DNA from: Candidatus Pacearchaeota archaeon
GTDB taxonomy: Archaea > Nanobdellota > Nanobdellia > Pacearchaeales > GW2011-AR1
Reading direction: 5' to 3'
Assembly: GCA_023144035.1 (NCBI GenBank)
Contig: JAGLGM010000001.1
Location: forward strand, 65,091 to 129,090
DNA length: 64,000 bases
Shown: piece by piece, positions 11,151 through 30,722 of the stretch
How positions within the stretch are numbered: position 1 is the first letter of the stretch
How the letters are laid out: every line of letters begins with the position of its first letter
The notes under the pieces: generated by a model
The model's database searches: none
Told to the model about the DNA's origin: nothing
Seen by the model: only the letters and a program-made list of their open reading frames with translations
Made by a program: the position numbers and the translations under genes

Positions 11151-14100
11151 TTAACACCATTCTTTTGCTCCCAAATTACATAATGATTTCTTCATTGCTT
11201 GGTTATCTAATAATAATTGATTTATTGTATTATTTTGAGAAATAATTAATTCTTGCTGTCCTTTTGTTGCTTGAACAAGTATAGGAGTTAAATAACCACT
11301 TCTTACTCCTGTTGCATAAAGCATTTTTGTTCCATTTTTATCAATATACCAATTAGATGAATTTGAAGCATTTTCATATATTATTGCCTCAGGAACAATC
11401 TTACCTAATTCTTCTGCAATAAATCCTATATCATGATTTCCAGTATCTTTCCAATTAAAATAACTTCCTTCAATATTAAGAATTTTATCTAAAGCAATTT
11501 GAGAATTTATCTCTGTTATATTTTCTTTCCATCTTATAGAAGAACCAAAACCATAGGTATTATGTGGAGAATAAAAATCAGCAGTGCCACCATCACCATA
11601 CACACCATAAGTAGTCCCTGTACCATACATACCAGTGTTTCCATCACCATATACACCAGTAGCAGTTCCTATACCATATACACCAGTAGTACCTCCACTA
11701 CCATATACACCATAAGTAGTTCCATAACTATATATTCCTGTATTGTCACCATCATGAATATAAACAGAATAAGTTGAAGCATCTGTTCCACTATTACCAA
11801 TTCTTAATCTAGATAAAGGAGTTGTATCTCCAATACCTACATTTCCATTATTAATATAAAAAACTTCTCCAGTGCTATCTCTCATTCTAATTCCTGCTAA
11901 ATCACTATTAAGAAATAAATCACTATGAGATTCAGAACCAAATCCAATATATCCTAATCTTGTAGGAGTTGCTCCATAATAAAATGAAAGAATTGGATTT
12001 GCTGCTGTTTCTGTGGTTTCTGTATCTGTAAGAGAAAGCATATTTGCTCCACCAGCAGAAGAAAGAGATAAAAGCGCATTAGGACTATTAGTTCCAATTC
12101 CCCATTTATCTGCTGAAGCATCATAATATAATCCTGCATTTCCTGATGATTTTCCAAGATTTAAATCAGCTATAGCAGGTGCATCTTCATCATAATTATA
12201 AATATTAAAAATATCATTTGCATCTTGATAAAATGTTGCTCTAAATGTTGAATCTCCAAATATTTTTAATCCTACAGCAGCAGCATTAGGGTCTATTATT
12301 TGACTTCCAACAACATGTAATTTCTCAGTAGGATTAGCTGTTCCAATACCTACTCTATTTGTACTTGTATCTACAAACAAATCAGTATTATCAACACTAA
12401 AGTTTCCTGTAAAGTTTCCATCTCCTACTACATTTAAAATATTTTGAGGTGTTATTGTGTTTATACCTACCTTTCCATCTATATCAAATGAGTGTTTATA
12501 TCCTCCTCCAACATATATCTGAAGTTCTGCATCTGTATCTTCAACAGGTCCAAGAAGCATTTTAGTGCCATCCATACCCATCATTCTTATTATGGTTCCA
12601 TCAGAGAATGCACTATAATAACCTCCATATATAACTATTGGTTTATCTCCTCCATCAACATAAAGGTCTCCTCCACTAACATTTGTAGTTCCAATAACAT
12701 GTAAAGGGTTTAATGGACTATCAGTTCCAATACCTACTCTACTAGTTGAACTATCTACAAATAAATCACTTGTATCAACAACCAAATCTCCTCCGAAAGT
12801 TCCAGTCCCAGCAGCATTAAGATTAGGAGCTCCTGTAAGATATAAACCAACATCATCATCAAAATACCCCCAAACTTTATTACCATCTTCAGGTTCAATA
12901 AATTGAAGATCTTCTCCACTAACCCTTATAGCTGCATCTCCAGTACCAGAAGTATCAAAATAAATAGTTGCATCTGCTTTATCTATTCTCAAATCTCCAG
13001 TCATAGTATCTCCTATAACAGCAACAAAATCTAAACTATCCATAGTATCTAAAGTATCAGCATCTCCAACTTTATCTCCTGATTCATAAAATTCAGTTAC
13101 ATCTGAAAGAGTTGCATAAAGACTAGCTTCATCAGTTAATGTGGCTCCTTTAGTATTTATTTGAGTTTGTATATCTGAACTAACTCCTTGTAAATAATCC
13201 ATTTCTGTTGTAGTTACTCCACTTGCCCAATCATAAATATCATCTTTTTCAGGAACACTAGTATCTCCATCCCAACCAACAGCCCAAACTTCATTTGCAC
13301 CAACAGCACCAGTTACTGAATCCCCATTTTCCCAAAATTGTGTTACATCTGAAAGAGTTGCATAAAGACTAGCTTCATCAGTTAATGTGGCTCCTTTAGT
13401 ATTTATTTGAGTTTGTATATCTGAACTAACTCCTTGTAAATAATCCATTTCTGTTGTAGTTACTCCACTTGCCCAATCATAAATATCATCTTTTTCAGGA
13501 ACACTAGTATCTCCATCCCAACCAACAGCCCAAACTTCATTTGCACCAACAGCACCAGTTACTGAATCCCCATTTTCCCAAAATTCAGTTACATCATTAA
13601 GTAAAGTGTATAAATTTGCTTCTGTCATTACAGTTATTTCTGTATAATCTATTGCTGTTCCTAAATCTACACTTAATACTGAACCACTTCCAGTAAGCCC
13701 TGTACCATCAACATCTGTTGCATCAAAAGTTAAAGCGCATGTGCCTGAAGTACACCCGCCATTTAAACCAGAGGTACCTGCAGTAGTTGTTATTCCTGTA
13801 ATATCTCCTGTATTACTTGTATACCCTTCAGGATTTGAAGCATTATAAAAATGAGTTGCATCTAAGCCATCTAATAAATTAGCATCCCCTCCATCAATAG
13901 CATCAGTACCACAACTAAAAGTATTTGAAGAAACAGTATATAATAATTTCCCACTTGTACAATCAGGAATAGCTTTTGTTTGCCAAGTTGATGTTCCGCT
14001 ACCAACCATTATTGAATCTTCAACACTTGCTGTAAGTCCAGTTCCTCCATTTGCGACAGGTAATGTTCCTGTTACTTCTGATGTAAGAGTAATAGTTCCA

Positions 14101-17100
14101 TCATCAATTATTCCTACATCTGATTCACTTATTGCAGTACCTCCAAAAGTAATATCTCCACCTGTAACCGTTAAATCTCCTGAAAAACTAGAAGCAGGAG
14201 AAGTAATTGTAACAGAAGTATCAGCATTCATAGCAAGAGTATCATCAGATTCAATAACCATTCCTGTCGCTGTTCCATCAATATATGTTCCTGTATCTAC
14301 CCATCTAATATCTGTTCCAGAAGCCATTGTAATTGGAGCTGTACTTGAAAAAGTATGTGCTGCTGTCCATTCAAAAGTTGCTCCCTCATTTAATTCATCG
14401 TCACTAATTGAATTAGCTGGAACAGTTATTCCAGTAACAAAAGTTGGAGAAGTACTAAATACAACATCTCCAGTTCCAGTTCTTGCAGAATAATTTGCAG
14501 ACCATAAAGGTTCTCCAATTGGAGCATATGCTGCATCACCTTCAGTAGCAGTAAGTAAGTCAGCATGAACTTCATTAACAGCCCAAGGATTTGCAGTATT
14601 ATCCCAATCTGCTGTAATTGTTTCAGCTTCTCCTAAAAATGCAACAAGTGATTTATTTCCTGTCCAATAAGGATCTGTTTCTGTGTAAGATGTTAATACA
14701 GCATTTTCATTAGAATAAATTGTTCCTGTAAAATTACCATCTCCAATTACATTTAAAGTGTTTTGAGGAGAAGTTGTTCCAATACCTACATTTCCTGTAT
14801 TTACATCCCAGTGCATTATAGCATACCAACTACTACCTGCATCTGGACTTCTATCTAATACTAAATCTGCACCAGCTGTTTCTCTAAATGAAAACCAATC
14901 ACTACCTGCCCCTCCTGCTTCTCTAAATTCTAAAAGCCTTGAAGCTCCGGGAGTATTACTTGCACTTGGAGCTTTTATACTTAATGATGCCTCAGGACTA
15001 CTTGTTCCAATCCCAACATTCCCAGTTCCTAAATCCATTACTAAAATATTATCTACTCTTGTTCCTATTGCATCTGTTAAAGAAGTATATTTAGCAATTC
15101 CTCCATTAACATTAAAAAGTATTCCTTTATCATCTGCTCCCCCTCCTAAATCTCCATAGATTACATTTACAGAATCTCCTTCCATTACCAAATTAGCATT
15201 TCCACCACTATTATAAATATGTTGTGTTAAACCAGTCATATCTCCTGTACTTCCAAATAAATTTAATCCGGGGCTTGTTGTTCCGATACCTACATTTCCA
15301 TCTTTGTCTATTCTCATTTGCTCAGATATTGAACCCCCTGTGGATGTAACAAATAATAATACAGCAGAATCTTCAATAGTACCAGATATATGAGAATATA
15401 TTGCTGCAACTGTTGAATCCTTTGCTTTAAACTGAATACCACCAACACTATAATCATCACCTAATTCTTGAACTCTGTTTAAAATCAAATTAGGTGCAGC
15501 AGTTGTTTTCTTTAATTCTAATAAATCTCCAGGACTATCAGTTCCAATACCTACATTTCCAGCAGAATCAATTCTCATACCTTCAGCTGCTGCACCATAT
15601 TTAAAAATTAATTCATTAGTTGCATCAGAATGTATACCTGCTCTTTCTACTCCTCCTACTGTTTCTCTAAAAGTATATCCACCTGCTATCCTTCCAATTC
15701 CAATATCTCCATTTACTTCTAATTTTGTTCCAGGGATATCAGTCCCAATACCAATATTTTGATTTTCTAACCAAGTCATAATTGTACTTGCACTTACTCC
15801 TTCTTCTCTTAATCTAAACCTTCCTTGACTTCCATCATCATCTGATAAAAATCTAAAAGGAATACCATTTGTATCTGTTGAAGTTAATCCTATTTGTGCT
15901 GTTGCATCTTCAATTTCTAAATTATAATCAGGACTATCAGTTCCAATACCTACATTACCTGCTTGATTAATATACATACGAGAATTTGAACCATTAGTTT
16001 GAAATTCAATTCCGTCGGCTACATCAGTTGTTCTTATTGTATAATCTGAATTAGAACCACTATCAAATCCAGAAAAACCTATTGTATCTCCATTTCCATC
16101 TTTAACAATTGTATATCCATAAGAAGCATCCAAAACCCCTGTGCTTTGTAATGTTATATGAGTATCAGAATCTTTTAAGTGTAGAATTGTATCAGGATTA
16201 TCTGTTCCAATACCTACATTTCCATCATTATTATTCACAAAAAAATCTGTTCCACCAACACTCAAATTATTATCACCTAAAACAAGATTTGTGTTTGCAC
16301 CAGTATAAGGAACATAACTTGTATTTGTTGTAGAACTCCAAGTAGTGTTATAAGCTGTCCAATTTGACACCCAAGTAGAACCTTGACTCCAAGAATTATT
16401 ATAAGCTGTATAATTTGAAGACCAAAGAGGTTCATTAACTAAAGCATAAGAAGTATTTGTTGTAGAACTCCAAGTAGTGTTGTAAGCTGTCCAATTAGCT
16501 AACCAAGTAACATCTCCACCTGAACTCCAAGTAGTGTTATAAGCTGTCCAATTAGCTAACCAAGTTGCATCTGAACCAGAACCACTAACAGAACTTAAAC
16601 AATTTCCTCCTTCAATACAAAAATCTACTTGAGAAGTTACATTTCCTGTGAAATTTCCATCTCCAATTACATTTAAGGTGTTTTGGGGTGTTGCAGTGTT
16701 TATACCTATGTTTCCACCATCTTTAAGAATCATCCTAAGATGAGAATCTGTTCTACCTCCAACATAAAATTCAATATCTGTTGAGGGAGTATAAGCAGTA
16801 AGAAATAAATTTCCACCAGAACTTTGAATCCCGCCTTTTCCAGCATAATTAGGAACAGCTGCATATCCATCAGAATGAGTAGCAAAATTTAATTGGGAAT
16901 CACTCCCATTTGCAGGAGCATTAAATAAAAACCCTGCAGAACCATCATTTGAAGTTGTATCCACTCTACTTCTAATATTATCTGAACCAGAAATATGTAA
17001 AATTCTTTCAGGATTATCTGTCCCAATACCTACATTACCATCAACAATTAAAGTATCACTGGTTCTTAATTTGTCTGCAGAATCCCTATATAAATCTACA

Positions 17101-20100
17101 TCAATATCTGTACTTCCTGCACCCCATCCTAATTTCCCAACACCATCAAAATTAAATCTTGCATAAGTTTCTCCACTAATTGATGTATAAAAAACTCCTC
17201 TACCAGAAGTTGGAATTGTATTATGAACTAAACCAAAACTCATTCTATCATATAAATCATCACTCTTCATTTTTATTTCGCCTTGATTTCCTTCAATACT
17301 AAAAATCTGTATATTATTACCTGATGTTGTATCTATAATATGTAATTTATCTTCTGGACTACTCGTCCCAATCCCAACATTCCCAGTTGAACTATCTACA
17401 AATAAATCAGTATTATCAACACTAAAGTTTCCTGTGAAGTTTCCATCTCCAATTACATTTAAGGTGTTTTGAGGGGTTGTTGTGTTTATACCTACTCTAG
17501 CAACTCCACCAGTTTCATCAATACGAATTCCTTCAACTCCACCAGCAACTAAACTTAGTTGGTCTGGAGTTCCATCAATAGCAGTTGCTATTCCTGTGTT
17601 TTCATCACCTTCAAAAGTTATTGTTAGACTAGCTAATGTTGGTGCTTCTGCTTTTAAACTACCACCATAAGCTACATTTGAACCAAAATATCTATTATTC
17701 TTTAAGGCAAATTTCGCAACTCCTCCAAGTACAAAATTTAATCTATCATCCAAACTTTCATAAAAACCAGTATCACCATCACCAAAAGTTAAACCTCCAG
17801 ATAAACTTCCTAATGTTCCATTAAGATTTAATAAAGATTGAGGATTATCTGTCCCTATCCCAACATTATCACCACTATTAGTTAGAAAAACATCAGTTCC
17901 TGCCCTACTCCAAGTTGAAGTATTACCTGAGAATGTTCCGAAGAAATTAGAAGCAGTTACATTCCCTGCAATAGAAACATTACCAGAACTAAAATCCCCC
18001 TGAATCAAAGGAACAGCATTTACATTTGCTTGTTGAACTATGAATTGATTAGATAAAACATTATTTAAACCAGCTTGATAACCTAAAGCAACAACATCGT
18101 CACCTGTGTTATTATAACCTGCTTGATAACCAATTCCTGTAATTGTATGTCCTGTGTTTAAACGACCAGCCTCGTAACCAATTCCTATAGCATTACTTCC
18201 TTCATTTGAATAACCTGCTCTAAAACCAATTGTTGATTGATAAGCTCCTTGATTTGAATAACCTGCTTGATAACCTATTGCTACTTGATTAATTCCTGTA
18301 TTTGAATGACCTGAATAAGGTCCAAATACAACTTGATTACTTCCTATATTTGAATAACCTGCATAATAACCTATTGCTGATTGACCCACACCTTCATTTT
18401 CACGACCTGCATTAAGACCAAATACTGATTGATAATCTGCTTTATTATCATAACCTGCATAATAACCTATTGCAACTTGACTAGTTCCATTATTTTGATA
18501 ACCTGCATAATAACCTATTGCTGATTGATAATCTCCTGTGTTTAAATAACCTGAATAAGCTCCTAATGCAGCTTGATTAAATCCGGTATTTGCTTGGCCT
18601 GTACGATAACCTACTGCTGATTGTTGGTTTCCTGTATTTGATAAACCTGCTTGATAACCAATTGCTATTTGACGATTTCCTGTATTTGAAAAACCTGCTT
18701 GATAACCAATTGCTAAAGAATATAAAGTATCAGAACCTGCTAATTTTCCAATTCCAAAACTATTATTTGTTTCAAAATATTCTATAAAATCATCACCACC
18801 AAATTTATATGTTTGGTCATTTGGAATTGTTAATCCTCCTGTAAAGTTTCCATCTCCAATTACATTTAAGGTGTTTTGTGGGGTTAAAGTATTTATTCCA
18901 ACATTTCCTGTATTATCTATCCTCATTCTTTCTAAACCATTTGTTGCAAACCTCATATTAGTATCTTCATAATTCCAAAATATTAATTCTTCAACAGTAG
19001 ACATACCAAATAAAACACCATCACTTGAACCAACACCTGTATCATCATTTGAAAATCTTACATGTAAACTACCTCCTCCTGATTCAAATAAATCTAAATT
19101 ACGAGTTGGTGTTGAAGTTCCAATCCCAACATTCCCAGTTGAACTATCTACAAATAAATCAGTATTATCAACACTAAAGTTTCCTGTGAAGTTTCCATCT
19201 CCAATTACATTTAAGGTGTTTTGAGGTGTTGAAGTGTTGATACCTACATTTCCACTATTAATATAAGAGTTTCCATTTGGATTTATTCTCACATTGTTAT
19301 TCAAAGAAGAATCCCATAAATCTAATACTCCTGTAGCAGAAGCTAAACGCATTCTTTGTGTATAACCATCATCACTATCTCTCCAATAAAATACATCTCC
19401 TGTATCAAAATTAATATTCCCTCCAGTACTCCTTAGAATAAGTGCAGAATTTCCTACGAAAGTTAAGGCGTTTGTCCCCATTATTATTCCTTGTCCAACT
19501 GAATTTACATACATTTGGACATTCTCTGCACTTTTGTCATCATATCCATTTAATTGTATACCTTTTCCATCTACACTTTGACTAACTTCTAATTTTACAG
19601 AAGGATTATCAGTCCCAATCCCAACATTATCTCCACTATTAGTTAGAAAAACATCAGTTCCTGCCCTACTCCAAGTTGAAGTATTACCCGAGAATGTTCC
19701 GAAGAAATTAGAAGCAGTTACATTCCCTGCAATAGAAACATTACCAGAACTAAAATCCCCCTGTATCAAAGGAACAGCATTTACATTTGCTTGTTGAACT
19801 ATGAATTGGTCATCTAAAACATTATTTAAACCAGCTTGATAACCTAAAGCAACTACATCGTCACCAGTGTTATTTTGTGTTGCATAATATCCAATTCCTG
19901 TAACTCTATGTCCTGTATTTAAATAACCTGCATAATACCCTATTACTGTTTGAAAACTTCCTGTGTTTTCACGACCTGCAAGATAACCTATTGCTGATTG
20001 ATAAGCTCCTGAATTTTGACGACCAGCATTATAACCTAATGCTGATTGAGAACTCCCTGTATTTTGATAACCTGCAGAATGACCTATTACTACTTGATTA

Positions 20101-23100
20101 ATTCCTGTGTTTGAATTACCTGCATAATAACCTATTGCTGTTTGAATAGTTCCTGTATTTGATTTACCTGCTTGATAACCTATTGCAGTTTGATAAGTTC
20201 CTGTGTTTTGATAACCTGCATAATAACCTATTGCTAAAGAAATTAAAGTATCAGAACCTGCTGATTTTCCAACTCCAAAACTATTATTTGTTTCAAAATA
20301 TTCTATAAAATCATCACCACCAAATTTATATGTTTGGTCATTTGGAATTGTTAATCCTCCTGTGAAGTTTCCATCTCCAATTACATTTAATGTGTTTTGT
20401 GGGGTTGTAGTGTTTATACCAACTTTTTCAAAAAAACCATAATCAGAAGTAATATTATAACCTGTATGATTTATATTTTCATGCATGTGAAAAGAAAGAG
20501 GGTCTACTTCATTTCCTATCTTTGGAGTATAACCACTTGAAACATACATTGCATCAATTCTTAATTTGTGTTGAACATTTGCTCCATTGTTATGAGTTAT
20601 TTTAATCATTATTTTATCATCAATTAAATGGTCAGAAGCATCTCTCATATCTGCGCAAGCCCATCTAAAAGTCTCTCCAGACCTAAAAGTAATATAATCT
20701 TCCCAATAACCACCAGTGTCCCAAATTGCTAAATCAAAATCTTCATTATCAGAAATATATCTTACACAAATTCTATTAACCTCACTTGAAACATTTGCTG
20801 TAGTATTTGCATAATATTCTAAACCCTGCGGAACAACCTCTGTTAAATTATAAGTTACAGCATCATAATTATTATATTGTTGTGTTGAAGTCAAACTTCC
20901 CTCTGGCGTTCCATAAACTACAGTTTCAGTTACAAAAAACCAAACATCTCCTAATAATAGTTCATCTAATTTAGATTCATTAAAAGTTAAATTATATCCA
21001 TTAAAATCACTCCAAGTATCTGTTGTCCAATTAAATAATCCATTGAACCAGTTTCCTGTAACATTCCCTGCAATAGAAACATTACCAGAACTAAAATCCC
21101 CCTGAATCAAAGGAACAGCATTTACATTTGCTTGTTGAACTATGAATTGATTAGAATCATTATTATAATATCCTGCTTGATAACCTATTGCTACAACATC
21201 ATCACCTGTGTTATTATAACCTGCTTCATATCCAAATACAGTAATAGAATTACCAGAATTACGAAAAGCACTGCTTCCACCAATTGCAGTTACAGAAAAA
21301 CCTTCATTTTGATAAGCACTATTAGAACCAAATGCTACAATACTATTACCTAATTGATATCCACCTGCTCTATAACCAACAGCAGTAACATATTGTCCCT
21401 CATTATGATTAAGGGCTTGATAACCCACACCAACAGAATAAACACCTGGACTTGAATATCCTGCCCAAGTTCCAATTAAAACATTTCTACCTCCAGTATT
21501 TCCATCACCTGCTCTATAACCAACAGCTGTAACATCATTACCAGTATTTCCATCACCTGCTAAATAACCAAAATATGTAGATTGACTTGTAGGATTTCCA
21601 GATAATGTTCCAACAGATAATGATTTTAATGTATCATTAAATCTAAAGTTACTTGAATATATTTGACCATCTACTTCTAATTTATAATCTGGACTATCTG
21701 TCCCTATCCCAACACTATCTCCAGTATTAGTCAAGAAAACATCAGTTCCTGCCCTACTCCAAGTTGAAGTATTACCAGAGAATGTTCCGAAGAAATTAGA
21801 AGCAGTTACATTCCCTGCAATAGAAACATTACCAGAACTAAAATCCCCCTGAATTAAAGGAACAGCATTTACATTTGCTTGTTGAACTATGAATTGGTCA
21901 TCTAAAACATTATTTTCTCCTGCTTCATAACCAATGAAAACCCCATCATCTCCAGTATTATTATAACCTGCTTGATAACTAATTCCTGTAACTCTAAGTC
22001 CTGTATTTAGATAACCTGCATTATAACCAATAGAAGTTACAAAGGCTCCAGTATTCTTATAACCTGAATTATATCCTATTGAGACTAAAGATTCTCCAAT
22101 GTTCTCAAATCCTGCTTGATAGCCAAATAATGAAACACTTGCCCCAGTGTTTTCACTTCCAGAAGAATGTCCAAAAAAAGTACTTAGTGAACCAGTATTC
22201 TTATAACCTGCTCTATAACCAACAGCGTTAGAACCAGTCCCAGTATTTGTATGTAATGCTCCAATTCCAAAAGCATTTGAATAAGTTCCAGAATTAAAAG
22301 CTAATGCTTGATAACCAACACCACTAGAATATGCTCCAGTATTTGAAAAACCTGTTTGATAACCTAGAAGAGTTGTTTGAGTTAAGATATCTCCAGTTGA
22401 TGAACCAACAACAGTTGATTTTAAAGAATCACTCCAATTAAAATTAGTTGATTTTATACTTCCTATAACTTCAAGTTCTTCACCAGGATTATCAGTCCCT
22501 ATCCCAACATTATCTCCAATATTAGTTAAGAAAACATCAGTTCCTGCCCTACTCCAAGTTGAAGTATTACCCGAGAATGTTCCAAAGAAATTAGAAGCAG
22601 TTACATTCCCTGCAATAGAAACATTACCAGAACTAAAATCCCCCTGTATCAAAGGAACAGCATTTACATTTGCTTGTTGAACTATGAATTGGTCATCTAA
22701 AACATTATTTTCTCCTGCTTCATAACCTAAAGCAACAACATCGTCACCTGTGTTATTTCGTGTTGCTTCTGCACCCAAACCTGTAACCCTATGTCCTGTA
22801 TTATCATGACCTGCATTAGAACCAATTGCTGCTTGATAATCTCCTGTGTTTTCATAACCTGCAAGATAACCCATTGCTGTTTGATAACCTCCTTCATTTA
22901 ATTGACCTGCTTGATTACCTATTGCTGATTGATAGTTTCCAGTATTTGAACGACCTGCATTTACTCCTATTGCTGATTGAAAAGTTCCTGTGTTTTGATA
23001 ACCTGTATAAAAACCTATTGCTGATTGACCATAACCTTCATTTTCATAACCTGCACGATAACCTATTGCTACTTGATTAGTTCCTGTGTTTAAATAACCT

Positions 23101-26100
23101 GCATAATAACCAATACCTAAAGAATATTGAGTATCAGAACCTGATAATTTTCCAACTCCAAAACTCTTATTTGTTTCAAAATATTCTATAAAATCATCAC
23201 CACCAAATTTATATGTTTGGTCATTTGGAATTGTTAATCCTCCTGTGAAGTTTCCATCTCCAATTACATTTAAGGTGTTTTGAGGACTTGTCGTCCCAAC
23301 TCCTAAATAACCTGAACTAAAATCCCCCTGTATCAAAGGAACAGCATTTACATTATCCATTTTTAAAATAAATTGATTATCTAAAATATTATTTTCTCCT
23401 GCTTCGTGACCAATGAAAACTCCACTATCTCCTGTATTATTATAACCTGCTTGATATCCCATTGCAGTTTGATAAGTTCCTGTGTTTAAACGACCTGTTT
23501 CATAACCTATTGCTGATTGATAAACTCCTGAATTTTGATAACCTGCTTGATAACCTATTGCTGATTGAGAACTCCCTGTATTATAACGACCTGCTTGAGA
23601 ACCTATTGCTACTTGATTATTTCCTTCATTTCCATATCCAGCATAATAACCTATTGCTAATTGTAGACTTCCTGTGTTTGAATGACCTGTATAAAGCCCC
23701 ATTACAACTTGATTATCTCCTGTGTTTGAATGACCTGCAAAATAACCTACTGCTGATTGAGAACTCCCTGTATTTTGATAACCTGCCCAATAACCCAATG
23801 CTGATTGCCCTAAACCTTCATTTTCAAAACCTGCTTGATAACCTATTACTGTTTGACGAATACCTATATTTTGATAACCAGCATAATCTCCTATTGCTAA
23901 AGAACGCAAAGTATCAGAACCTGCTAATTTTCCAACTCCAAAACTATTATTTGTTTCAAAATATTCTATAAAATCATCACCACCAAATTTATATGTTTGG
24001 TCATTTGGAATTGTTAATCCTCCTGTGAAGTTTCCATCTCCAATTACATTTAAAGTATTCTGAGGACTTGTCGTACCGATACCTACATTCCCAGAACTAA
24101 AATCCCCCTGAATCAAAGGAACAGCATTTACATTTGCTTGTTGAACTATGAATTGGTCATCTAAAACATTATTCTTTCCAGCTTGATAACCTATTGCTAC
24201 AACATCATTCCCTTTATTATTTTCCCCTGCTTCATATCCTATTGCAGAAACCTGATTACCAGTATTATTCTTTGAAGCATCAGCCCCTATTCCTATAACA
24301 TTATCTCCTGTTTGTAATTGTCCAGCATAATAACCTACTGCAGTTAATTTATCTCCTTCATTTCCATATCCAGCATATTGTCCAACAGAAGTTAAATAAT
24401 TTCCAATATTTAAACGACCAGCATAATTTCCCACAGAAGTCATATAAGTTCCTGTATTAGAAAATCCAGCATAAGCACCAATTGCTAATTGATTAACACC
24501 ACTATTTACCCTTCCTGCTTGATTACCTATTGCTACTTGATTAGCACCAGAATTGGCAACACCTGCATAATAACCTATTGCAACCTCATCTTCCCCAGTA
24601 TTACTACTACCTGCAAAATAACCAATTGCTACTTGATTAGCACCAGAGCTTGAATCACCAGCTCTATAACCTACTGCTGTTTGTTTTGTTAAACCTAATG
24701 TACCTGCATCATCTCCTACAAAAGTATTAGCATAAACTGCATCTGTTCCTTTATCTAATCTTAAGGCAGTAAATCCATCATATAAATAAGCAGAATTATT
24801 ATCTATGTTTATATTGCCAACAACATCTAAATCATAAGAAGGACTATCTGTCCCTATCCCAACACTATCTCCACTATTAGTTAAAAAAACATCAGTTCCT
24901 GCCCTACTCCAAGTTGAAGTATTACCTTCCATTGTTCCAGTAAAATTACCAAAGAAATTATCTGCTGTAACATTTCCATCTACAACCACATTTTCATTAA
25001 AAGTAACTTCTGAATCTGTTACTTCAACTACATTTTCATCATTTGCAATTAAATGCAAACTTGAAGTCCCATAACCTAATCCATAACTTGTCTCCTCTTG
25101 ATTAGGTATAATTGTAGGATTTGTGCTTGAAGTTTCCTCATTAAGAATTGCTCCACTTTTAACAATATTTCCTGAAAGAAAATTCCCTGAAACACTCCCA
25201 AAAGTCACATTACTTGTAAAATTCGCAGGTTTCCAACCAGTTATTTGCGAAGAAGTTAATTCTAAAATATTAGTATCTCCAGCAATAATATTAACACTTG
25301 AACTCCCATAACCTATTCCATAACCTGTTTCTCCTTTATTTGGAAGAATTGTAGGAACAGTTGAAGTAGATTGAACATTAACAAACCCATATGAACCAGC
25401 CACAACACCAGTCAAACTCCCTTGAACAGTCATATCTTGAGTAATATTTACTGAAGAACTATTAAATTCAGCAACATTTATAGAATCAGCAATTAAATGA
25501 ATGCTTTGAGAACCATACCCCAGACCATAACCTGTTTCCCCTTGATTAGGCACAATAGTAGGATTTGTACTTGAAGACCCCTCATTAAGAATTGCTCCAC
25601 TTGTAGCCTCACTTCCTCTTAAAAAATCCCCTCCAAAAGTTACATTTCCTGTGAAGTTTCCATCTCCAATTACATTTAAGGTGTTTTGGGGGTCAGTAGT
25701 TCCAATACCAACTCTCGCAATTCCACCAGTTTCATTAATATTTAATCCATTTACTCCACCAGCAACTAAAGATAATGTATCTTCTCCTGCCCATCCAATA
25801 CCTGTATCTATATCTCCTCTACTTGGTTCTATTGAAGGATAATAAGAAGTTGCTCCTGCTGATTTAAGTCTTGGTCCGCTACTATCTGAAGAATAAAAAC
25901 CCCCTGCAGCAAACCAAAACCTTACACTTCCAGCAGCAAATACTCCTAAAACATCATCTCCATACCTTTCTCCAAAACCAGTATCCCCATCTCCAAATGA
26001 AATAACTGGTTCATTAATTCCAGTATTTGATAAAGATATTTTAGATGCATATAAATCCCCAGTAAAATTCCCATCTCCAATTACATTTAAAGCACTTAGA

Positions 26101-26789
26101 GGATTATCTGTCCCTATCCCAACATTATCACCAATATTAGTTAGAAAAACATCAGTTCCTGCCCTACTCCAAGTTGAAGTATTACCTTCCATTGTTCCAG
26201 TAAAATTACCAAAGAAATTATCTGCTGTGATATTTCCAGTAGTAGTTATATTTCCTATTCCAATAACTTCTCCACTAAAATCTAAATCAGTCACAAACAA
26301 CTTAGAAATCCTTGAAGTTAAACTTCCAAGAAACCCAAAAAAACCAGTACCAGTTGTAGTCACATTATAAGCACCCATATCAAGATTTTGATCTATTTCA
26401 ACTCCACTCAAAGTTATATTCTGTGCTCTAAAAGAATAAGGAGTCCGAGCAATTTTTGAAGAGTCCTTTAAAGCACCATCTCTGTAATAACAAAGATAAT
26501 ATTGCTCATCATAATCAAGAGTAACACTTGGAAGATAATATGAAATTATCCCACGCGTATCAGTTAAAAGAGTTGTAGAATTAGTATAAATTATATTGTC
26601 ACAAGTAGAAGTTGTTGAAATATTAAATACAAAATCAAAAGTCCCTGTAGTAATTGTTCCATTATCAAATGTTGTTTGAATATTTAAATGAATGTCATCA
26701 GTAATTACAGCAGCCATTGTAAAAGAAATTGAAAGAGTTATAACTAAAGTTATTACTAAAATATTATAAAAATGCCTTATTAACTTCAT
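11151..26789 (-). CDS. Giant (5212 aa) repetitive surface fibre protein. Phage tail-fibre-like beta-helix/beta-roll repeats. C-terminal intramolecular chaperone (Peptidase S74-like) domain
   Basis: Single uninterrupted 15.6-kb ORF. N-terminal signal/TM (MKLIRHFYNILVITLVITLSISF). More than 15 copies of VGIGTxxPxNTLNVIGDGNFTG. Long arrays of 14-residue AIGYxAGxxNTGxxQx repeats (YadA-head/Hep_Hag-like). Several ~70-aa modules (FIVQQANVNAVPLIQGDFSSGNVSIAGNVTASNFFGTFSGNTSTWSRAGTDVFLTN...). Hundreds of N-x-S/T sequons. C-terminus (11151..~11600) matches endosialidase chaperone: SSIRWKENI...YFNWKD...IGFIAEELGKIVPEAI...YATGVRSGYLTPILVQATKGQQELI. Confidence 0.85.
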   Translation of the reverse strand: MKLIRHFYNILVITLVITLSISFTMAAVITDDIHLNIQTTFDNGTITTGTFDFVFNISTTSTCDNIIYTNSTTLLTDTRGIISYYLPSVTLDYDEQYYLCYYRDGALKDSSKIARTPYSFRAQNITLSGVEIDQNLDMGAYNVTTTGTGFFGFLGSLTSRISKLFVTDLDFSGEVIGIGNITTTGNITADNFFGNFTGTMEGNTSTWSRAGTDVFLTNIGDNVGIGTDNPLSALNVIGDGNFTGDLYASKISLSNTGINEPVISFGDGDTGFGERYGDDVLGVFAAGSVRFWFAAGGFYSSDSSGPRLKSAGATSYYPSIEPSRGDIDTGIGWAGEDTLSLVAGGVNGLNINETGGIARVGIGTTDPQNTLNVIGDGNFTGNVTFGGDFLRGSEATSGAILNEGSSSTNPTIVPNQGETGYGLGYGSQSIHLIADSINVAEFNSSSVNITQDMTVQGSLTGVVAGSYGFVNVQSTSTVPTILPNKGETGYGIGYGSSSVNIIAGDTNILELTSSQITGWKPANFTSNVTFGSVSGNFLSGNIVKSGAILNEETSSTNPTIIPNQEETSYGLGYGTSSLHLIANDENVVEVTDSEVTFNENVVVDGNVTADNFFGNFTGTMEGNTSTWSRAGTDVFLTNSGDSVGIGTDSPSYDLDVVGNINIDNNSAYLYDGFTALRLDKGTDAVYANTFVGDDAGTLGLTKQTAVGYRAGDSSSGANQVAIGYFAGSSNTGEDEVAIGYYAGVANSGANQVAIGNQAGRVNSGVNQLAIGAYAGFSNTGTYMTSVGNYAGRLNIGNYLTSVGQYAGYGNEGDKLTAVGYYAGQLQTGDNVIGIGADASKNNTGNQVSAIGYEAGENNKGNDVVAIGYQAGKNNVLDDQFIVQQANVNAVPLIQGDFSSGNVGIGTTSPQNTLNVIGDGNFTGGLTIPNDQTYKFGGDDFIEYFETNNSFGVGKLAGSDTLRSLAIGDYAGYQNIGIRQTVIGYQAGFENEGLGQSALGYWAGYQNTGSSQSAVGYFAGHSNTGDNQVVMGLYTGHSNTGSLQLAIGYYAGYGNEGNNQVAIGSQAGRYNTGSSQSAIGYQAGYQNSGVYQSAIGYETGRLNTGTYQTAMGYQAGYNNTGDSGVFIGHEAGENNILDNQFILKMDNVNAVPLIQGDFSSGYLGVGTTSPQNTLNVIGDGNFTGGLTIPNDQTYKFGGDDFIEYFETNKSFGVGKLSGSDTQYSLGIGYYAGYLNTGTNQVAIGYRAGYENEGYGQSAIGFYTGYQNTGTFQSAIGVNAGRSNTGNYQSAIGNQAGQLNEGGYQTAMGYLAGYENTGDYQAAIGSNAGHDNTGHRVTGLGAEATRNNTGDDVVALGYEAGENNVLDDQFIVQQANVNAVPLIQGDFSSGNVSIAGNVTASNFFGTFSGNTSTWSRAGTDVFLTNIGDNVGIGTDNPGEELEVIGSIKSTNFNWSDSLKSTVVGSSTGDILTQTTLLGYQTGFSNTGAYSSGVGYQALAFNSGTYSNAFGIGALHTNTGTGSNAVGYRAGYKNTGSLSTFFGHSSGSENTGASVSLFGYQAGFENIGESLVSIGYNSGYKNTGAFVTSIGYNAGYLNTGLRVTGISYQAGYNNTGDDGVFIGYEAGENNVLDDQFIVQQANVNAVPLIQGDFSSGNVSIAGNVTASNFFGTFSGNTSTWSRAGTDVFLTNTGDSVGIGTDSPDYKLEVDGQIYSSNFRFNDTLKSLSVGTLSGNPTSQSTYFGYLAGDGNTGNDVTAVGYRAGDGNTGGRNVLIGTWAGYSSPGVYSVGVGYQALNHNEGQYVTAVGYRAGGYQLGNSIVAFGSNSAYQNEGFSVTAIGGSSAFRNSGNSITVFGYEAGYNNTGDDVVAIGYQAGYYNNDSNQFIVQQANVNAVPLIQGDFSSGNVSIAGNVTGNWFNGLFNWTTDTWSDFNGYNLTFNESKLDELLLGDVWFFVTETVVYGTPEGSLTSTQQYNNYDAVTYNLTEVVPQGLEYYANTTANVSSEVNRICVRYISDNEDFDLAIWDTGGYWEDYITFRSGETFRWACADMRDASDHLIDDKIMIKITHNNGANVQHKLRIDAMYVSSGYTPKIGNEVDPLSFHMHENINHTGYNITSDYGFFEKVGINTTTPQNTLNVIGDGNFTGGLTIPNDQTYKFGGDDFIEYFETNNSFGVGKSAGSDTLISLAIGYYAGYQNTGTYQTAIGYQAGKSNTGTIQTAIGYYAGNSNTGINQVVIGHSAGYQNTGSSQSALGYNAGRQNSGAYQSAIGYLAGRENTGSFQTVIGYYAGYLNTGHRVTGIGYYATQNNTGDDVVALGYQAGLNNVLDDQFIVQQANVNAVPLIQGDFSSGNVSIAGNVTASNFFGTFSGNTSTWSRAGTDVFLTNSGDNVGIGTDNPSVKLEVSQSVDGKGIQLNGYDDKSAENVQMYVNSVGQGIIMGTNALTFVGNSALILRSTGGNINFDTGDVFYWRDSDDGYTQRMRLASATGVLDLWDSSLNNNVRINPNGNSYINSGNVGINTSTPQNTLNVIGDGNFTGNFSVDNTDLFVDSSTGNVGIGTSTPTRNLDLFESGGGSLHVRFSNDDTGVGSSDGVLFGMSTVEELIFWNYEDTNMRFATNGLERMRIDNTGNVGINTLTPQNTLNVIGDGNFTGGLTIPNDQTYKFGGDDFIEYFETNNSFGIGKLAGSDTLYSLAIGYQAGFSNTGNRQIAIGYQAGLSNTGNQQSAVGYRTGQANTGFNQAALGAYSGYLNTGDYQSAIGYYAGYQNNGTSQVAIGYYAGYDNKADYQSVFGLNAGRENEGVGQSAIGYYAGYSNIGSNQVVFGPYSGHSNTGINQVAIGYQAGYSNQGAYQSTIGFRAGYSNEGSNAIGIGYEAGRLNTGHTITGIGYQAGYNNTGDDVVALGYQAGLNNVLSNQFIVQQANVNAVPLIQGDFSSGNVSIAGNVTASNFFGTFSGNTSTWSRAGTDVFLTNSGDNVGIGTDNPQSLLNLNGTLGSLSGGLTFGDGDTGFYESLDDRLNFVLGGVAKFALKNNRYFGSNVAYGGSLKAEAPTLASLTITFEGDENTGIATAIDGTPDQLSLVAGGVEGIRIDETGGVARVGINTTTPQNTLNVIGDGNFTGNFSVDNTDLFVDSSTGNVGIGTSSPEDKLHIIDTTSGNNIQIFSIEGNQGEIKMKSDDLYDRMSFGLVHNTIPTSGRGVFYTSISGETYARFNFDGVGKLGWGAGSTDIDVDLYRDSADKLRTSDTLIVDGNVGIGTDNPERILHISGSDNIRSRVDTTSNDGSAGFLFNAPANGSDSQLNFATHSDGYAAVPNYAGKGGIQSSGGNLFLTAYTPSTDIEFYVGGRTDSHLRMILKDGGNIGINTATPQNTLNVIGDGNFTGNVTSQVDFCIEGGNCLSSVSGSGSDATWLANWTAYNTTWSSGGDVTWLANWTAYNTTWSSTTNTSYALVNEPLWSSNYTAYNNSWSQGSTWVSNWTAYNTTWSSTTNTSYVPYTGANTNLVLGDNNLSVGGTDFFVNNNDGNVGIGTDNPDTILHLKDSDTHITLQSTGVLDASYGYTIVKDGNGDTIGFSGFDSGSNSDYTIRTTDVADGIEFQTNGSNSRMYINQAGNVGIGTDSPDYNLEIEDATAQIGLTSTDTNGIPFRFLSDDDGSQGRFRLREEGVSASTIMTWLENQNIGIGTDIPGTKLEVNGDIGIGRIAGGYTFRETVGGVERAGIHSDATNELIFKYGAAAEGMRIDSAGNVGIGTDSPGDLLELKKTTAAPNLILNRVQELGDDYSVGGIQFKAKDSTVAAIYSHISGTIEDSAVLLFVTSTGGSISEQMRIDKDGNVGIGTTSPGLNLFGSTGDMTGLTQHIYNSGGNANLVMEGDSVNVIYGDLGGGADDKGILFNVNGGIAKYTSLTDAIGTRVDNILVMDLGTGNVGIGTSSPEASLSIKAPSASNTPGASRLLEFREAGGAGSDWFSFRETAGADLVLDRSPDAGSSWYAIMHWDVNTGNVGIGTTSPQNTLNVIGDGNFTGTIYSNENAVLTSYTETDPYWTGNKSLVAFLGEAETITADWDNTANPWAVNEVHADLLTATEGDAAYAPIGEPLWSANYSARTGTGDVVFSTSPTFVTGITVPANSISDDELNEGATFEWTAAHTFSSTAPITMASGTDIRWVDTGTYIDGTATGMVIESDDTLAMNADTSVTITSPASSFSGDLTVTGGDITFGGTAISESDVGIIDDGTITLTSEVTGTLPVANGGTGLTASVEDSIMVGSGTSTWQTKAIPDCTSGKLLYTVSSNTFSCGTDAIDGGDANLLDGLDATHFYNASNPEGYTSNTGDITGITTTAGTSGLNGGCTSGTCALTFDATDVDGTGLTGSGSVLSVDLGTAIDYTEITVMTEANLYTLLNDVTEFWENGDSVTGAVGANEVWAVGWDGDTSVPEKDDIYDWASGVTTTEMDYLQGVSSDIQTQINTKGATLTDEASLYATLSDVTQFWENGDSVTGAVGANEVWAVGWDGDTSVPEKDDIYDWASGVTTTEMDYLQGVSSDIQTQINTKGATLTDEASLYATLSDVTEFYESGDKVGDADTLDTMDSLDFVAVIGDTMTGDLRIDKADATIYFDTSGTGDAAIRVSGEDLQFIEPEDGNKVWGYFDDDVGLYLTGAPNLNAAGTGTFGGDLVVDTSDLFVDSSTSRVGIGTDSPLNPLHVIGTTNVSGGDLYVDGGDKPIVIYGGYYSAFSDGTIIRMMGMDGTKMLLGPVEDTDAELQIYVGGGYKHSFDIDGKVGINTITPQNILNVVGDGNFTGNFSVDNTDLFVDTSTNRVGIGTANPTEKLHVVGSQIIDPNAAAVGLKIFGDSTFRATFYQDANDIFNIYNYDEDAPAIADLNLGKSSGNAGLYYDASADKWGIGTNSPNALLSLSSAGGANMLSLTDTETTETAANPILSFYYGATPTRLGYIGFGSESHSDLFLNSDLAGIRMRDSTGEVFYINNGNVGIGDTTPLSRLRIGNSGTDASTYSVYIHDGDNTGIYSYGTTYGVYGSGGTTGVYGIGTATGVYGDGNTGMYGTGTTYGVYGDGGTADFYSPHNTYGFGSSIRWKENITEINSQIALDKILNIEGSYFNWKDTGNHDIGFIAEELGKIVPEAIIYENASNSSNWYIDKNGTKMLYATGVRSGYLTPILVQATKGQQELIISQNNTINQLLLDNQAMKKSLCNLGAKEWC
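13096..13587. repeat. Exact tandem duplication of a 246-bp (82-aa) unit inside the giant gene
   Basis: The protein segment FWENGDSVTGAVGANEVWAVGWDGDTSVPEKDDIYDWASGVTTTEMDYLQGVSSDIQTQINTKGATLTDEASLYATLSDVT occurs twice back-to-back. The DNA copies are essentially identical. Confidence 0.85.
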
Positions 26790-27488: not shown

Positions 27489-27609
27489 GAGCCTATAGCT
27501 CAGCCTGGTTAGAGCGCTGGTCTTATATGAATGCAGTCCATGAGGATTGTTCTCTTTTGGATTCGTCTAAGAGAGCCAGAGGTCCTCGGTTCAAATCCGA
27601 GTAGGCTCA
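27489..27609 (+). tRNA. tRNA-Ile (anticodon UAU) with ~46-nt intron at canonical position 37/38
   Basis: Hand-folded. Acceptor GAGCCTA/TAGGCTC+A. D-arm GCTC-AGCCTGGTTA-GAGC. Anticodon stem CTGGT/GCCAG, loop CTTATA|intron|A. T-arm CTCGG-TTCAAAT-CCGAG. Anticodon call depends on the intron boundary. Confidence 0.6.
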
Positions 27610-30712: not shown

Positions 30713-30722
30713 AATTAATTAA

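What the first reader, a model, noticed from the sequence alone, without database searches (positions are those of the whole stretch)
11151..26789. 15.6-kb gene encoding a 5212-aa phage-tail-fibre-like surface fibre with a C-terminal self-cleaving chaperone domain, in an archaeon
One ORF covers a quarter of the window. It combines a signal peptide, hundreds of N-glycosylation sequons, YadA-head/Hep_Hag-like AIGYxAGxxNTG beta-roll arrays and the recurrent VGIGTxxPxNTLNVIGDGNFTG module. Its last ~150 residues (SSIRWKENI...YFNWKD...GFIAEELGKIVPEAI) match the endosialidase/tail-spike intramolecular chaperone (Peptidase S74) that trimerises and then excises itself. That domain is characteristic of phage fibres and bacterial prophage adhesins. 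In a tiny-genome, probably episymbiotic archaeon it suggests a giant trimeric host-attachment fibre built from viral parts. This is the best candidate for the novel system in the window.
Basis: partly seen in the sequence, partly recalled or inferred. Interest (0 to 1): 0.85.

Follow-up and report, generated by a model that had tools for sequence, protein, structure and literature searches.

The report
Giant phage-fibre-like surface protein, DPANN archaeon
A tiny cold-seep archaeon carries a real 15.6-kb gene for a secreted, probably three-stranded fibre built from the same parts as virus tail fibres, including a self-removing folding domain; it is a good candidate for how such cells hold on to other cells, but both the parts and giant surface proteins in these archaea were already known.

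Summary

New here: the gene sits at a conserved, hypervariable chromosomal locus. Relatives carry 359-aa, 748-aa and at least 2168-aa versions with the same signal peptide and N-terminal domain. One relative has a signal-less fibre behind an HK97-type capsid gene at that site.

Most likely it is a secreted fibre that trimerises from its C-terminus, cleaves off the chaperone, and serves in adhesion. The adhesion role is inferred. It is a new, extreme variant of known kinds, not a new system.

The parts
11151..26789 (-). Whole CDS, 5212 aa plus stop codon
   Evidence: GC3 is 0.10, the same as host genes. The same length is called in an independent assembly.
26712..26789 (-). Residues 1-26: Sec-type signal peptide, or possibly an uncleaved signal anchor. 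MKLIRH + hydrophobic core + TMA|A.
   Evidence: It is the only hydrophobic 19-mer in the protein. The same feature is seen in 58 N-domain homologues. No signal-peptide predictor was run.
26340..26711 (-). Residues 27-150: conserved N-terminal domain of a Nanoarchaeota protein family; proposed cell-proximal docking end
   Evidence: 58 homologues at 40-83% identity, named Nanoarchaeota, Pacearchaeota or ainarchaeum. 52% identical to the syntenic 748-aa P0002.
24990..25658 (-). Residues 378-600: three copies of a ~75-aa repeat (SGAILNExSSTNPTIxPNxGETGYGxGYG...)
   Evidence: also present in P0191 and P0192. Function unknown.
24135..24752 (-). Array 1 of 16-residue repeats (residues 680-885)
23355..23942 (-). 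Array 2 (residues 950-1145); this is the array that was modelled
22665..23162 (-). Array 3 (residues 1210-1375)
21870..22442 (-). Array 4 (residues 1450-1640)
21120..21662 (-). Array 5 (residues 1710-1890)
20460..21077 (-). Residues 1905-2110: unique Cys-containing domain, unidentified
   Evidence: No internal repeat, no Pfam hit at E <= 10, no PDB sequence hit.
19785..20312 (-). Array 6 (residues 2160-2335)
   Evidence: best stretch of the phrog_4636 tail spike hit
18015..18782 (-). Array 7 (residues 2670-2925), 14 units
14724..17864 (-). Residues 2976-4022: string of ~90-130-aa modules, each opened by GNVGIGTxxP...L.V.G
   Evidence: PHROG tail fiber families 9942 and 18345. The same motif precedes the chaperone in MyRF.
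13677..14723 (-). Residues 4023-4371: unique region (ETDPYW..., LPVANGGTGLTA)
   Evidence: Short motifs are shared with bacterial fibre-like genes.
12939..13676 (-). Residues 4372-4617: three tandem 82-aa repeats (246-nt unit); the only spot where the assembly is uncertain
   Evidence: A 100-N gap lies here in scaffold L094. The repeat is also present in L005.
11544..12938 (-). Residues 4618-5082: VGIGT modules, then xGVYGxGx octad repeats. This would be the distal tip of the mature fibre.
   Evidence: Shared with P0001-P0004.
11154..11543 (-). Residues 5083-5212: Peptidase_S74 intramolecular chaperone plus C-terminal long helix. Predicted cleavage is at Gly5082|Ser5083.
   Evidence: Pfam. Profile against PDB hits 6f45, 8jov and 7dc3. 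AF2 pLDDT > 90. Foldseek hits 7dc3, 3gw6, 3gud and 4uw8.
11541..11543 (-). Ser5083 codon, the predicted nucleophile
   Evidence: Invariant column in alignment A1; aligns to the S/A of SDRRIK, SDERLK and ADLRAK in solved chaperones.
11526..11528 (-). Lys5088 codon, the predicted general base
   Evidence: Invariant column in alignment A1
7097..8143 (-). Neighbour gene: 348-aa type-I membrane protein (signal peptide, Cys-rich DUF4215, Ig-like part, C-terminal TM). It accompanies the fibre locus in all relatives. A link to the fibre is possible but unproven.
9911..11107 (-). Neighbour gene 43 nt downstream of the fibre gene: 398-aa protein with a lipobox-like N-terminus (LGSC). Relation to the fibre unknown.

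Best explanation
The gene encodes a secreted, very long modular fibre of a Nanoarchaeota (DPANN) archaeon, assembled like a virus tail fibre.

Proposed mechanism:
1. The N-terminal signal sequence exports the chain.
2. The C-terminal S74 intramolecular chaperone (residues 5083-5212) brings three chains together and nucleates folding of the upstream beta-structures from the C-terminus.
3. The Ser5083/Lys5088 dyad then cuts the bond before Ser5083 and releases the 130-residue chaperone.
4. The mature product of about 5050 residues per chain consists of a conserved N-terminal domain, seven YadA-head-like 16-residue beta-roll arrays with caps, about 20 'VGIGT' modules, several unidentified domains, and a GVYG-repeat tip.

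By analogy with phage fibres, the conserved N-terminal domain is the cell-proximal docking end. The variable C-terminal part is the distal, target-binding end. The fibre most likely serves adhesion of this small-genome archaeon to a partner cell or surface.

The gene occupies a conserved but hypervariable chromosomal locus. It arose from a short (~750 aa) orthologue by insertion and serial duplication of fibre modules that are also used by viruses.

Shown: the ORF, the domains, the dyad, the homologies, the synteny and the reproducibility of the assembly.
Inferred: export, trimerisation, cleavage, orientation, and above all the adhesive function and its target.
For: - ORF and architecture.
- S74 domain: Pfam 46.2 bits against cut-off 22. 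Ser5083 and Lys5088 invariant in 27 sequences. Profile hits to solved fibre chaperones 6f45 (1.9e-16) and 8jov (5.2e-14), and to MyRF 7dc3 (6.1e-9), with the S-x4-K aligned. AF2 pLDDT > 90 over residues 5086-5212. Foldseek top hits are the MyRF ICA, endosialidase, GP12 and T5 pb1 chaperones.
- Cellular, not viral: host-like GC3 of 0.10; no viral hallmark found in the window.
- Conserved synteny radical-SAM ... fibre ... w7097 - Obg - ... - Kae1 - L7Ae - S28e in L001, L012, L005 and L004.
- P0002 (748 aa) shares both the N-terminus (52% identity) and the C-terminus, down to the ending LGAKEWC.
- The N-domain family has 58 members, all with a signal-like N-terminus.
- An independent assembly gives the same 5212 aa.
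- Precedent for giant surface proteins and autotransporter-like or pyocin-knob proteins proposed for host interaction in DPANN: PMC10266531.
Against: - No membrane or cell-wall anchor is identified for the mature protein if the signal peptide is cleaved, so attachment to the cell is assumed, not shown.
- No receptor-binding or enzymatic domain was recognised. Residues 1905-2110 and 4023-4371 stay unidentified.
- The relative L005 has a fibre gene at the same locus without S74, so S74 is not obligatory for the family.
- There is no expression or proteomic evidence.
- The episymbiotic lifestyle of this organism is assumed from its lineage.
Confidence: 0.6

Rival explanations
1. It is the tail fibre of an integrated or defective tailed archaeal virus: a virion component, not a cellular organelle.
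For: - Shaft and chaperone are homologous to phage fibres.
- The closest C-terminal homologue, P0001, lies right after an HK97-type major head protein (phrog_1650, 3.4e-21) and a LamG virion protein, at the same chromosomal site in a relative.
- A tRNA-flanked remnant of an integrated element lies 2 kb upstream.
Against: - No capsid or other L004 viral-module homologue and no PHROG hit among the window ORFs tested, and no viral hallmark in the Pfam scans.
- The giant has a signal peptide and a cellular N-domain family that P0001 lacks.
- GC3 is identical to host genes.
- Relatives L001 and L012 have the gene between housekeeping genes with no viral genes.
- The gene lies outside the att-bounded segment 28751-30763.
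- A fibre of about 5050 residues is out of scale for a virus of a cell this small (inference).
Confidence: 0.08
2. It is a general envelope or matrix fibre for adhesion to minerals, biofilm or kin cells, or a protective coat. It has no role in recognising a specific host cell.
For: - Everything that supports a secreted trimeric fibre.
- No specific receptor-binding domain was recognised.
- YadA-type heads in bacteria bind many substrates (established knowledge of trimeric autotransporter adhesins).
Against: - Extreme length and domain turnover at one locus among close relatives: 359, 748, at least 2168 and 5212 aa, with the C-terminal domain swapped. This is the pattern of proteins under diversifying pressure from a biological partner, as in phage receptor-binding proteins. 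That is an inference, not proof.
Confidence: 0.2
3. It is a tailspike-like enzyme carrier: the beta-solenoid arrays or unidentified domains degrade a partner's surface polysaccharide, S-layer glycan or pseudomurein.
For: - The phrog_4636 'tail spike' hit on the arrays.
- S74 chaperones were first found on endosialidases (established knowledge; 3gw6 hit).
Against: - No catalytic family was detected by Pfam or NCBIfam.
- The 16-residue coils are too small for typical pectate-lyase-type active-site grooves (inference).
Confidence: 0.08
4. The giant ORF is an assembly artefact: a chimera, or collapsed or expanded repeats.
For: - The gene is highly repetitive.
- One scaffold has a 100-N gap in the 246-nt tandem repeat, and a Logan contig breaks in the GVYG repeats.
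- Most family members in databases are contig-end fragments.
Against: - An assembly from a second sample calls the same 5212-aa product; 6993 nt of it was held here and differs by 1 nt.
- The frame is unbroken for 15.6 kb.
- GC3 is uniform at 0.08-0.12 along the gene.
- The repeats are diverged: 48-nt units are 60-75% identical, and the longest exact repeat is under 250 nt.
Confidence: 0.04

Closest known systems
Phage tail fibres and tailspikes with a C-terminal intramolecular chaperone: K1F endosialidase (3gw6), phi29 GP12 (3gud), T5 pb1 L-shaped fibre (4uw8), S16 long tail fibre (6f45)
   Same: S74 domain with the Ser-x4-Lys dyad at the extreme C-terminus followed by a long helix. Beta-rich repetitive shaft before it. 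PHROG tail-fibre homology of the shaft modules. Conserved N-terminus with a variable C-terminal part.
   Different: Chromosomal gene of an archaeon between housekeeping genes. It has a signal peptide and a cellular N-terminal domain instead of a virion-attachment domain. At 5212 aa it is more than 4.5 times the longest of the 150 best-scoring representatives, which reach at most 1139 aa.
Cellular 'tail fiber domain-containing proteins' of bacteria (Bacteroidota, Planctomycetota, Patescibacteria and others) and of DPANN archaea
   Same: Same module set: AxGxxAGxxNTG arrays with a 16-17-residue period, the PLIxGDF cap, the VGIGT motif and S74. Often with a signal peptide. Examples are P0147, P0177, P0048 and P0098.
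   Different: Those proteins are 300-1100 aa with one array. Here seven arrays and about 20 VGIGT modules are concatenated. The N-terminal domain is specific to Nanoarchaeota.
Trimeric autotransporter adhesins (YadA, UspA1, BpaC, BoaA)
   Different: No YadA_anchor beta-barrel and no outer membrane. The period is 16, not 14. There is no direct YadA_head hit. Trimerisation is presumably driven by a cleavable S74 chaperone instead of the membrane anchor.
MyRF (eukaryotic membrane transcription factor with an ICA domain, 7dc3)
   Same: Best structural match of the chaperone (Foldseek 8.8e-7). Even the preceding GxVGI(N/G)TxxPxxxLxVxG motif is shared. It is a precedent for a viral fibre chaperone recruited by a cell.
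   Different: MyRF uses the cleavage to release a transcription factor. There is no fibre and no secretion.
Giant surface proteins of DPANN (nanohaloarchaeal 'SPEARE' proteins of 5,000-9,409 aa; autotransporter-like SVXNc_0803 with a LamG operon) - PMC10266531
   Same: A very large secreted protein in a small-genome, host-dependent archaeal lineage, located in variable genome regions and proposed to mediate host contact.
   Different: No Ig/WD40/VirB4-type ATPase architecture was detected here. The lineage is different (Nanoarchaeota from a marine cold seep). S74-mediated assembly was not reported for those proteins in the text read.

Membership tests
Peptidase S74 / C-terminal intramolecular chaperone domain (PF13884) | Match to the family model above the curated threshold | tested here: met
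   42.6-46.2 bits against cut-off 22, E = 5.8e-12, residues 5083-5136
Peptidase S74 / C-terminal intramolecular chaperone domain (PF13884) | Catalytic Ser and Lys five residues apart (S-x4-K) at the start of the domain | tested here: met
   Ser5083 and Lys5088 are invariant in 27 sequences and align with the corresponding residues of 6f45, 8jov and 7dc3
Peptidase S74 / C-terminal intramolecular chaperone domain (PF13884) | Characteristic fold at the extreme C-terminus with a terminal long helix | tested here: met
   AF2 pLDDT > 90, helix at model residues 179-220. Foldseek hits to 7dc3, 3gw6, 3gud and 4uw8.
Peptidase S74 / C-terminal intramolecular chaperone domain (PF13884) | Trimerisation-dependent autoproteolysis that releases the domain | not testable with these tools
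   Needs expression or proteomics
Phage/virus tail fibre (virion component) | Encoded within a viral structural gene module | tested here: not met
   No L004 viral-module homologue and no PHROG hit among the window ORFs tested; no viral hallmark in the Pfam scans. Flanked by housekeeping genes. It is met in the relative L004.
Phage/virus tail fibre (virion component) | Shaft homologous to known tail fibre families | tested here: met
   phrog_9942 at 8e-41, phrog_18345 at 1.2e-27, phrog_4636 at 2.2e-26
Phage/virus tail fibre (virion component) | N-terminus adapted to attach to a tail or baseplate, with no export signal | tested here: not met
   N-terminal hydrophobic signal plus a domain family found in cellular Nanoarchaeota contexts
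Trimeric autotransporter adhesin (type Vc) | C-terminal YadA_anchor beta-barrel translocator in an outer membrane | tested here: not met
   No such Pfam hit. The C-terminus is S74. The host is an archaeon.
Trimeric autotransporter adhesin (type Vc) | YadA_head / Hep_Hag repeats (PF05658) | tested here: inconclusive
DPANN giant 'SPEARE'-type surface proteins | Ig-like/WD40 ectodomains with a C-terminal membrane-embedded VirB4/TraG-like ATPase region (as described in PMC10266531) | tested here: not met
   No such Pfam domains. The only hydrophobic segment is N-terminal.
Diversity-generating retroelement target | Nearby reverse transcriptase with a template/variable repeat pair | tested here: not met
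   No ORF of 300 aa or more in the window gave a reverse-transcriptase hit; 14 of the 16 were scanned with Pfam, and 52122-53189 was scanned with PHROGs only. The internal repeats are ordinary diverged duplications.

The most novel reading that the evidence does not exclude
The fibre is a domesticated virus tail fibre that a DPANN lineage now uses as its own host-attachment organelle. It is kept at a dedicated hypervariable chromosomal locus that still exchanges chaperone and shaft modules with tailed viruses that integrate at the same site. Supporting this, the closest chaperone (including a shared lineage-specific insertion) belongs to a signal-less fibre gene behind an HK97 capsid gene in a relative. 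Length expansion from about 360 to 5212 aa would tune the reach of the fibre.
Probability: 0.3. Interest if true: 0.75.

Novelty: new variant of a known kind. Interest (0 to 1): 0.55.

Why it matters
How DPANN archaea other than a few cultured lineages find and hold their partners is largely unknown. This gene gives a concrete candidate that can be expressed, with a predictable processing site (Gly5082|Ser5083) and a defined variable tip.

The locus comparison also matters. One chromosomal site holds versions of 359 to 5212 aa, and in one relative a capsid-linked version. That offers a natural experiment on how cells and their viruses share receptor-binding hardware.

It also shows that members of this family are systematically fragmented in metagenome assemblies, so their prevalence in Nanoarchaeota is probably underestimated.

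Tried and rejected
- Whole-protein homology search: too long, then timed out. Regions were searched instead.
- Single-sequence PDB search of the C-terminus found nothing relevant. Only the profile worked.
- Direct Pfam YadA_head/Hep_Hag test on the arrays at E <= 10: no hit.
- NCBIfam: nothing meaningful.
- Foldseek of the array model: no significant hit.
- PDB sequence searches of residues 1895-2125 and 4015-4360: nothing.
- Sequon enrichment: rejected, 97 against 86.5 +/- 8.4.
- Foreign composition: rejected. The higher GC of the gene is all at codon position 2, so it reflects amino-acid composition; GC3 equals that of host genes.
- Provirus in the window: no L004 viral-module homologue and no PHROG hit among the window ORFs tested.
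- Paralogues elsewhere in the window: none.
- Close relatives in IMG/VR by single sequence: none. Only distant S74 relatives were found with the profile.
- DGR targeting: no reverse transcriptase found in the window.
- Giant gene inside a tRNA-bounded island: no. The att-like repeat pair encloses only about 28751-30763.
- Literature searches for an S74 or tail-fibre-like giant protein in DPANN found no description.
Full report

The window contains one ORF on the minus strand from 26789 down to 11151, 5212 codons plus stop. It is Gly/Thr/Asn/Ser-rich.

Its total GC (33-36%) exceeds that of its flanks (25-29%). This is entirely a codon-position-2 effect: GC2 is 0.46 against 0.26-0.34 in other genes. 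GC3 is 0.10, the same as in the surrounding housekeeping genes (0.07-0.17), and is uniform along the gene. The gene is therefore compositionally native.

NTLNVIGDGNFTG occurs 9 times, VGIGT 19 times, NVNAVPLIQGDFSSG 7 times and TWSRAGTDVFLTN 6 times.

The 'hundreds of sequons' claim is wrong. There are 97 N-x-S/T sites, against 86.5 +/- 8.4 in shuffles.

**2. Is it an assembly artefact?**

An exact look-up of the neighbouring 348-aa protein located the source: metagenomes of the Site-F cold seep, South China Sea (PMC9357000).

- A 241-kb scaffold from one sample is 100% identical to the window, but has a 100-N gap replacing window 13151-13284. That lies inside a 246-nt tandem repeat.
- A 24.7-kb contig from a second sample has no gap in the part that was held. 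It differs by a single base in the last 6993 nt of the gene, and its gene product is called as 5212 aa with PF13884.
- Internal DNA repeats are mostly diverged. The 48-nt units are 60-75% identical and the linkers reach up to 94%. The longest exact repeat, 200-249 nt, is that same tandem repeat.

The ORF is therefore real. Only the copy number of the 82-aa repeat is uncertain.

**3. The organism**

Four tRNA genes carry introns, at 118-153 nt by Rfam; ARAGORN finds only the intron-less one. The window encodes a ThrRS with the archaea-specific editing domain, Kae1, and archaeal PheRS alpha and beta.

The closest genome-collection locus is a Nanoarchaeota MAG. N-terminal homologues are labelled Nanoarchaeota, Pacearchaeota or ainarchaeum. 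'DPANN archaeon' is supported. An episymbiotic lifestyle is assumed from the lineage, not shown.

**4. Anatomy**

- Residues 1-26: basic stretch, hydrophobic core, then TMA|A. This is the only hydrophobic 19-mer in the whole protein.
- Residues 27-150: a conserved N-terminal domain.
- Residues 378-600: three repeats of about 75 aa.
- Seven arrays (680-885, 950-1145, 1210-1375, 1450-1640, 1710-1890, 2160-2335, 2670-2925), holding about 72 units of a strictly 16-residue repeat (AIGYxAGxxNTGxxQx). Each array is closed by NQFIVQQANVNAVPLIQGDFSSG and joined by conserved linkers.
- Residues 1905-2110: a unique Cys-containing domain.
- Residues 2976-4022: roughly twenty modules of 90-130 aa, each opened by GNVGIGTxxP.
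- Residues 4023-4371: a unique region.
- Residues 4372-4617: three 82-aa tandem repeats.
- Residues 4618-5082: more VGIGT modules, then xGVYGxGx octads.
- Residues 5083-5212: the C-terminal domain.

**5. The C-terminal domain**

Pfam gives PF13884 Peptidase_S74 at 42.6-46.2 bits (cut-off 22), covering residues 5083-5136.

In a 27-sequence alignment with database homologues, Ser5083 and Lys5088 are invariant. The five-residue spacing is, from my own knowledge, that of the endosialidase dyad Ser911/Lys916.

A profile of that alignment hits three solved chaperones, with the S-x4-K aligned:
- the S16 long tail fibre (6f45, 1.9e-16),
- another tail fibre (8jov, 5.2e-14),
- the MyRF ICA domain (7dc3, 6.1e-9).

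The AF2 model is confident (pLDDT > 90) from residue 5086 to the end and finishes in a 40-residue helix. Foldseek's only meaningful hits are MyRF ICA, the endosialidase chaperone 3gw6, phi29 GP12 3gud and T5 pb1 4uw8.

Every computationally testable membership criterion is met. Self-cleavage and trimerisation cannot be tested here.

**6. The shaft**

PHROGs assigns the VGIGT modules to tail-fibre families (phrog_9942 at 8e-41; phrog_18345 at 1.2e-27) and the arrays to a tailspike family (phrog_4636 at 2.2e-26).

The arrays give no Pfam YadA_head hit even at E <= 10, and Foldseek finds nothing significant for the array model. Three lines still support a link to YadA-type heads:
- Database homologues of the array (E down to 1e-56) include proteins that end in S74 or Peptidase_G2 chaperones.
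- Five homologues with the same 16-residue period pass the YadA_head cut-off.

I conclude that the arrays are a 16-residue beta-roll related to, but not a member of, the YadA_head family. The protein is not an autotransporter: it has no anchor and the host has no outer membrane.

**7. Genomic context: the most informative result**

The gene lies between a radical-SAM gene and a block reading 348-aa membrane protein (w7097) - Obg-like GTPase - ... - Kae1 - L7Ae - S28e. The same frame is found in relatives, but the gene in the middle differs:

- L012 (a single-cell genome): a 359-aa protein.
- L001/L002: the 748-aa P0002.
- L005 (a Nanoarchaeota MAG): a gene of at least 2168 aa that runs off the contig. 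It has VGIGT modules and the 82-aa repeat, but a different C-terminal domain that is not S74.
- The window: 5212 aa.

P0002 shares the giant's N-terminus (52% identity over ~135 aa) and its C-terminus, down to the final LGAKEWC. The giant therefore looks like that short orthologue with about 4500 residues of fibre modules inserted and duplicated.

The N-terminal domain defines a family of at least 58 database proteins at 40-83% identity. All have a signal-like N-terminus. Most are fragments at the ends of 1-5-kb contigs, so assemblies usually break inside these genes.

**8. Viral connection**

The best C-terminal homologue, P0001, is 593 aa and 41% identical overall, rising to 56% over the last 227 residues. 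It shares with the giant, P0002 and P0003 an insertion (NxSNxSNWYxDxNGxKxLYATG) that is absent from the other S74 domains.

P0001 has no signal peptide and no N-domain. It lies directly behind a LamG virion protein (phrog_8510) and an HK97-type major head protein (phrog_1650, 3.4e-21). It is followed by the w7097 homologue and Obg, which places it at the same chromosomal site in a relative.

In the window itself, no L004 viral-module homologue and no PHROG hit was found among the ORFs tested, and the Pfam scans showed no viral hallmark.

S74 domains are abundant in viral contigs, but at lower identity of 26-40%.

The cellular fibre and a virus of the same lineage therefore share recent chaperone ancestry. 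The direction of transfer is open.

**9. How common, how unusual?**

The S74-type C-terminus has 241,682 representative clusters at E <= 1e-3. The 150 best are 211-1139 aa long, so the giant is an extreme length outlier within an extremely common family.

The literature searches found no description of an S74 or tail-fibre-like giant protein in DPANN. Giant surface proteins (up to 9409 aa) have, however, been reported in nanohaloarchaea and proposed to mediate host interaction, together with an autotransporter-like protein, LamG proteins and a pyocin-knob protein (PMC10266531).

**10. Interpretation**

The best-supported mechanism is export by the N-terminal signal, then C-terminal nucleation of a homotrimer by the S74 chaperone, then autocleavage before Ser5083. 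The result would be a fibre roughly a few hundred nanometres long. That length is a rough scaling from T4 long tail fibres, from my own knowledge.

By analogy with phage fibres, the conserved N-terminal domain is proximal and the variable part is distal. Adhesion to a partner cell is the most plausible role, given the lineage and the rapid turnover at the locus, but it is an inference.

How the mature fibre stays on the cell is unresolved. Two possibilities are an uncleaved signal anchor and docking to an envelope protein. The co-located w7097 membrane protein is a candidate for the latter only by position.

The rivals are less likely, for the reasons listed under each: a provirus fibre, a non-specific matrix fibre, a depolymerase carrier, and an assembly artefact.

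**11. Verdict**

This is a real and well-delimited feature. The YadA and glycosylation details are overstated, and the function is unproven.

It is a new, extreme variant that combines two known kinds: S74-terminated fibre proteins and giant DPANN surface proteins. It is not a new system. The hypervariable-locus finding and the capsid-linked relative add real interest.

Noticed in passing
window 28673-28790 and 30724-30763 (also 30008-30021): The last 40 nt of the intron-bearing tRNA at 28673-28790 are repeated exactly at 30724-30763, and 14 nt at 30008-30021. This att-like pair brackets about 2 kb of small ORFs, including a toxin-antitoxin-like pair at 30120-30712 whose homologues follow the fibre gene in L005. 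It looks like the remnant of an element integrated into the tRNA. No integrase was seen.
   Followed up: partly
window 9773-9880 (-): A 35-aa ORF (MNRKLLICLVLGIFLTLPLINADIISINAEEIKIL) resembles the N-terminus of the 348-aa membrane protein at 7097-8143. It may be a leftover of a duplicated or displaced copy. This suggests the NTase/HEPN-like pair at 8140-9116 was inserted between the fibre gene and its usual neighbour.
   Followed up: no
window 7097-8143 (-), and its homologues in L001, L004, L005 and L012: A type-I membrane protein (signal peptide, Cys-rich DUF4215, poly-Asp/Gly linker, Ig-like part, C-terminal TM plus basic tail) sits next to Obg, adjacent to or a few genes from the fibre-locus gene, in every relative examined (39-49% identity). 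It is a possible envelope partner or anchor of the fibre, or simply conserved synteny.
   Followed up: partly
L004 219-5110: A relative's contig carries a compact head module upstream of the S74 fibre: an HK97-type major head protein (phrog_1650, 3.4e-21), a scaffold-like 92-aa protein and a LamG virion protein. This is a candidate (pro)virus of a Nanoarchaeota archaeon, integrated beside the Obg gene.
   Followed up: partly
L005 56-6508: The fibre gene of the Nanoarchaeota MAG CSMAG_2060 runs off the contig start (at least 2168 aa). It shares the 82-aa repeat (up to 60% identity) but ends in a different, unidentified ~170-aa C-terminal domain instead of S74. The tip and chaperone modules are evidently swapped within the family.
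   Followed up: partly
L013 8001-13828: In another relative, a 345-aa N-domain protein is followed, with a 4-nt overlap, by a secreted protein of at least 1598 aa with a Cys-rich part, a beta-propeller-like part and VGIGT-like modules, running off the contig. It is either a split giant gene or a two-gene fibre system.
   Followed up: no
window 11154-11190 (residues 5201-5212): The chaperone ends in a Cys pair (LCNLGAKEWC). The pair is conserved in P0002 (LCKLGAKEWC) and similar in P0001 and P0027, but absent from most S74 domains. Its significance is unknown.
   Followed up: no
window 27489-27609, 28673-28790, 61126-61259, 62509-62661: Four tRNA genes with long introns (47-82 nt beyond a standard tRNA) are detected by Rfam but missed by ARAGORN. 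The genes at 28673 and 62509 share nearly identical exons.
   Followed up: no
alignment A2 against PDB 7dc3: The fibre's GxVGIGTxxPxxxLxVxG motif also occurs directly upstream of the ICA domain in human/mouse MyRF (GRVGINTDRPDEALVVHGN). MyRF therefore seems to have inherited a piece of fibre shaft along with the chaperone.
   Followed up: no
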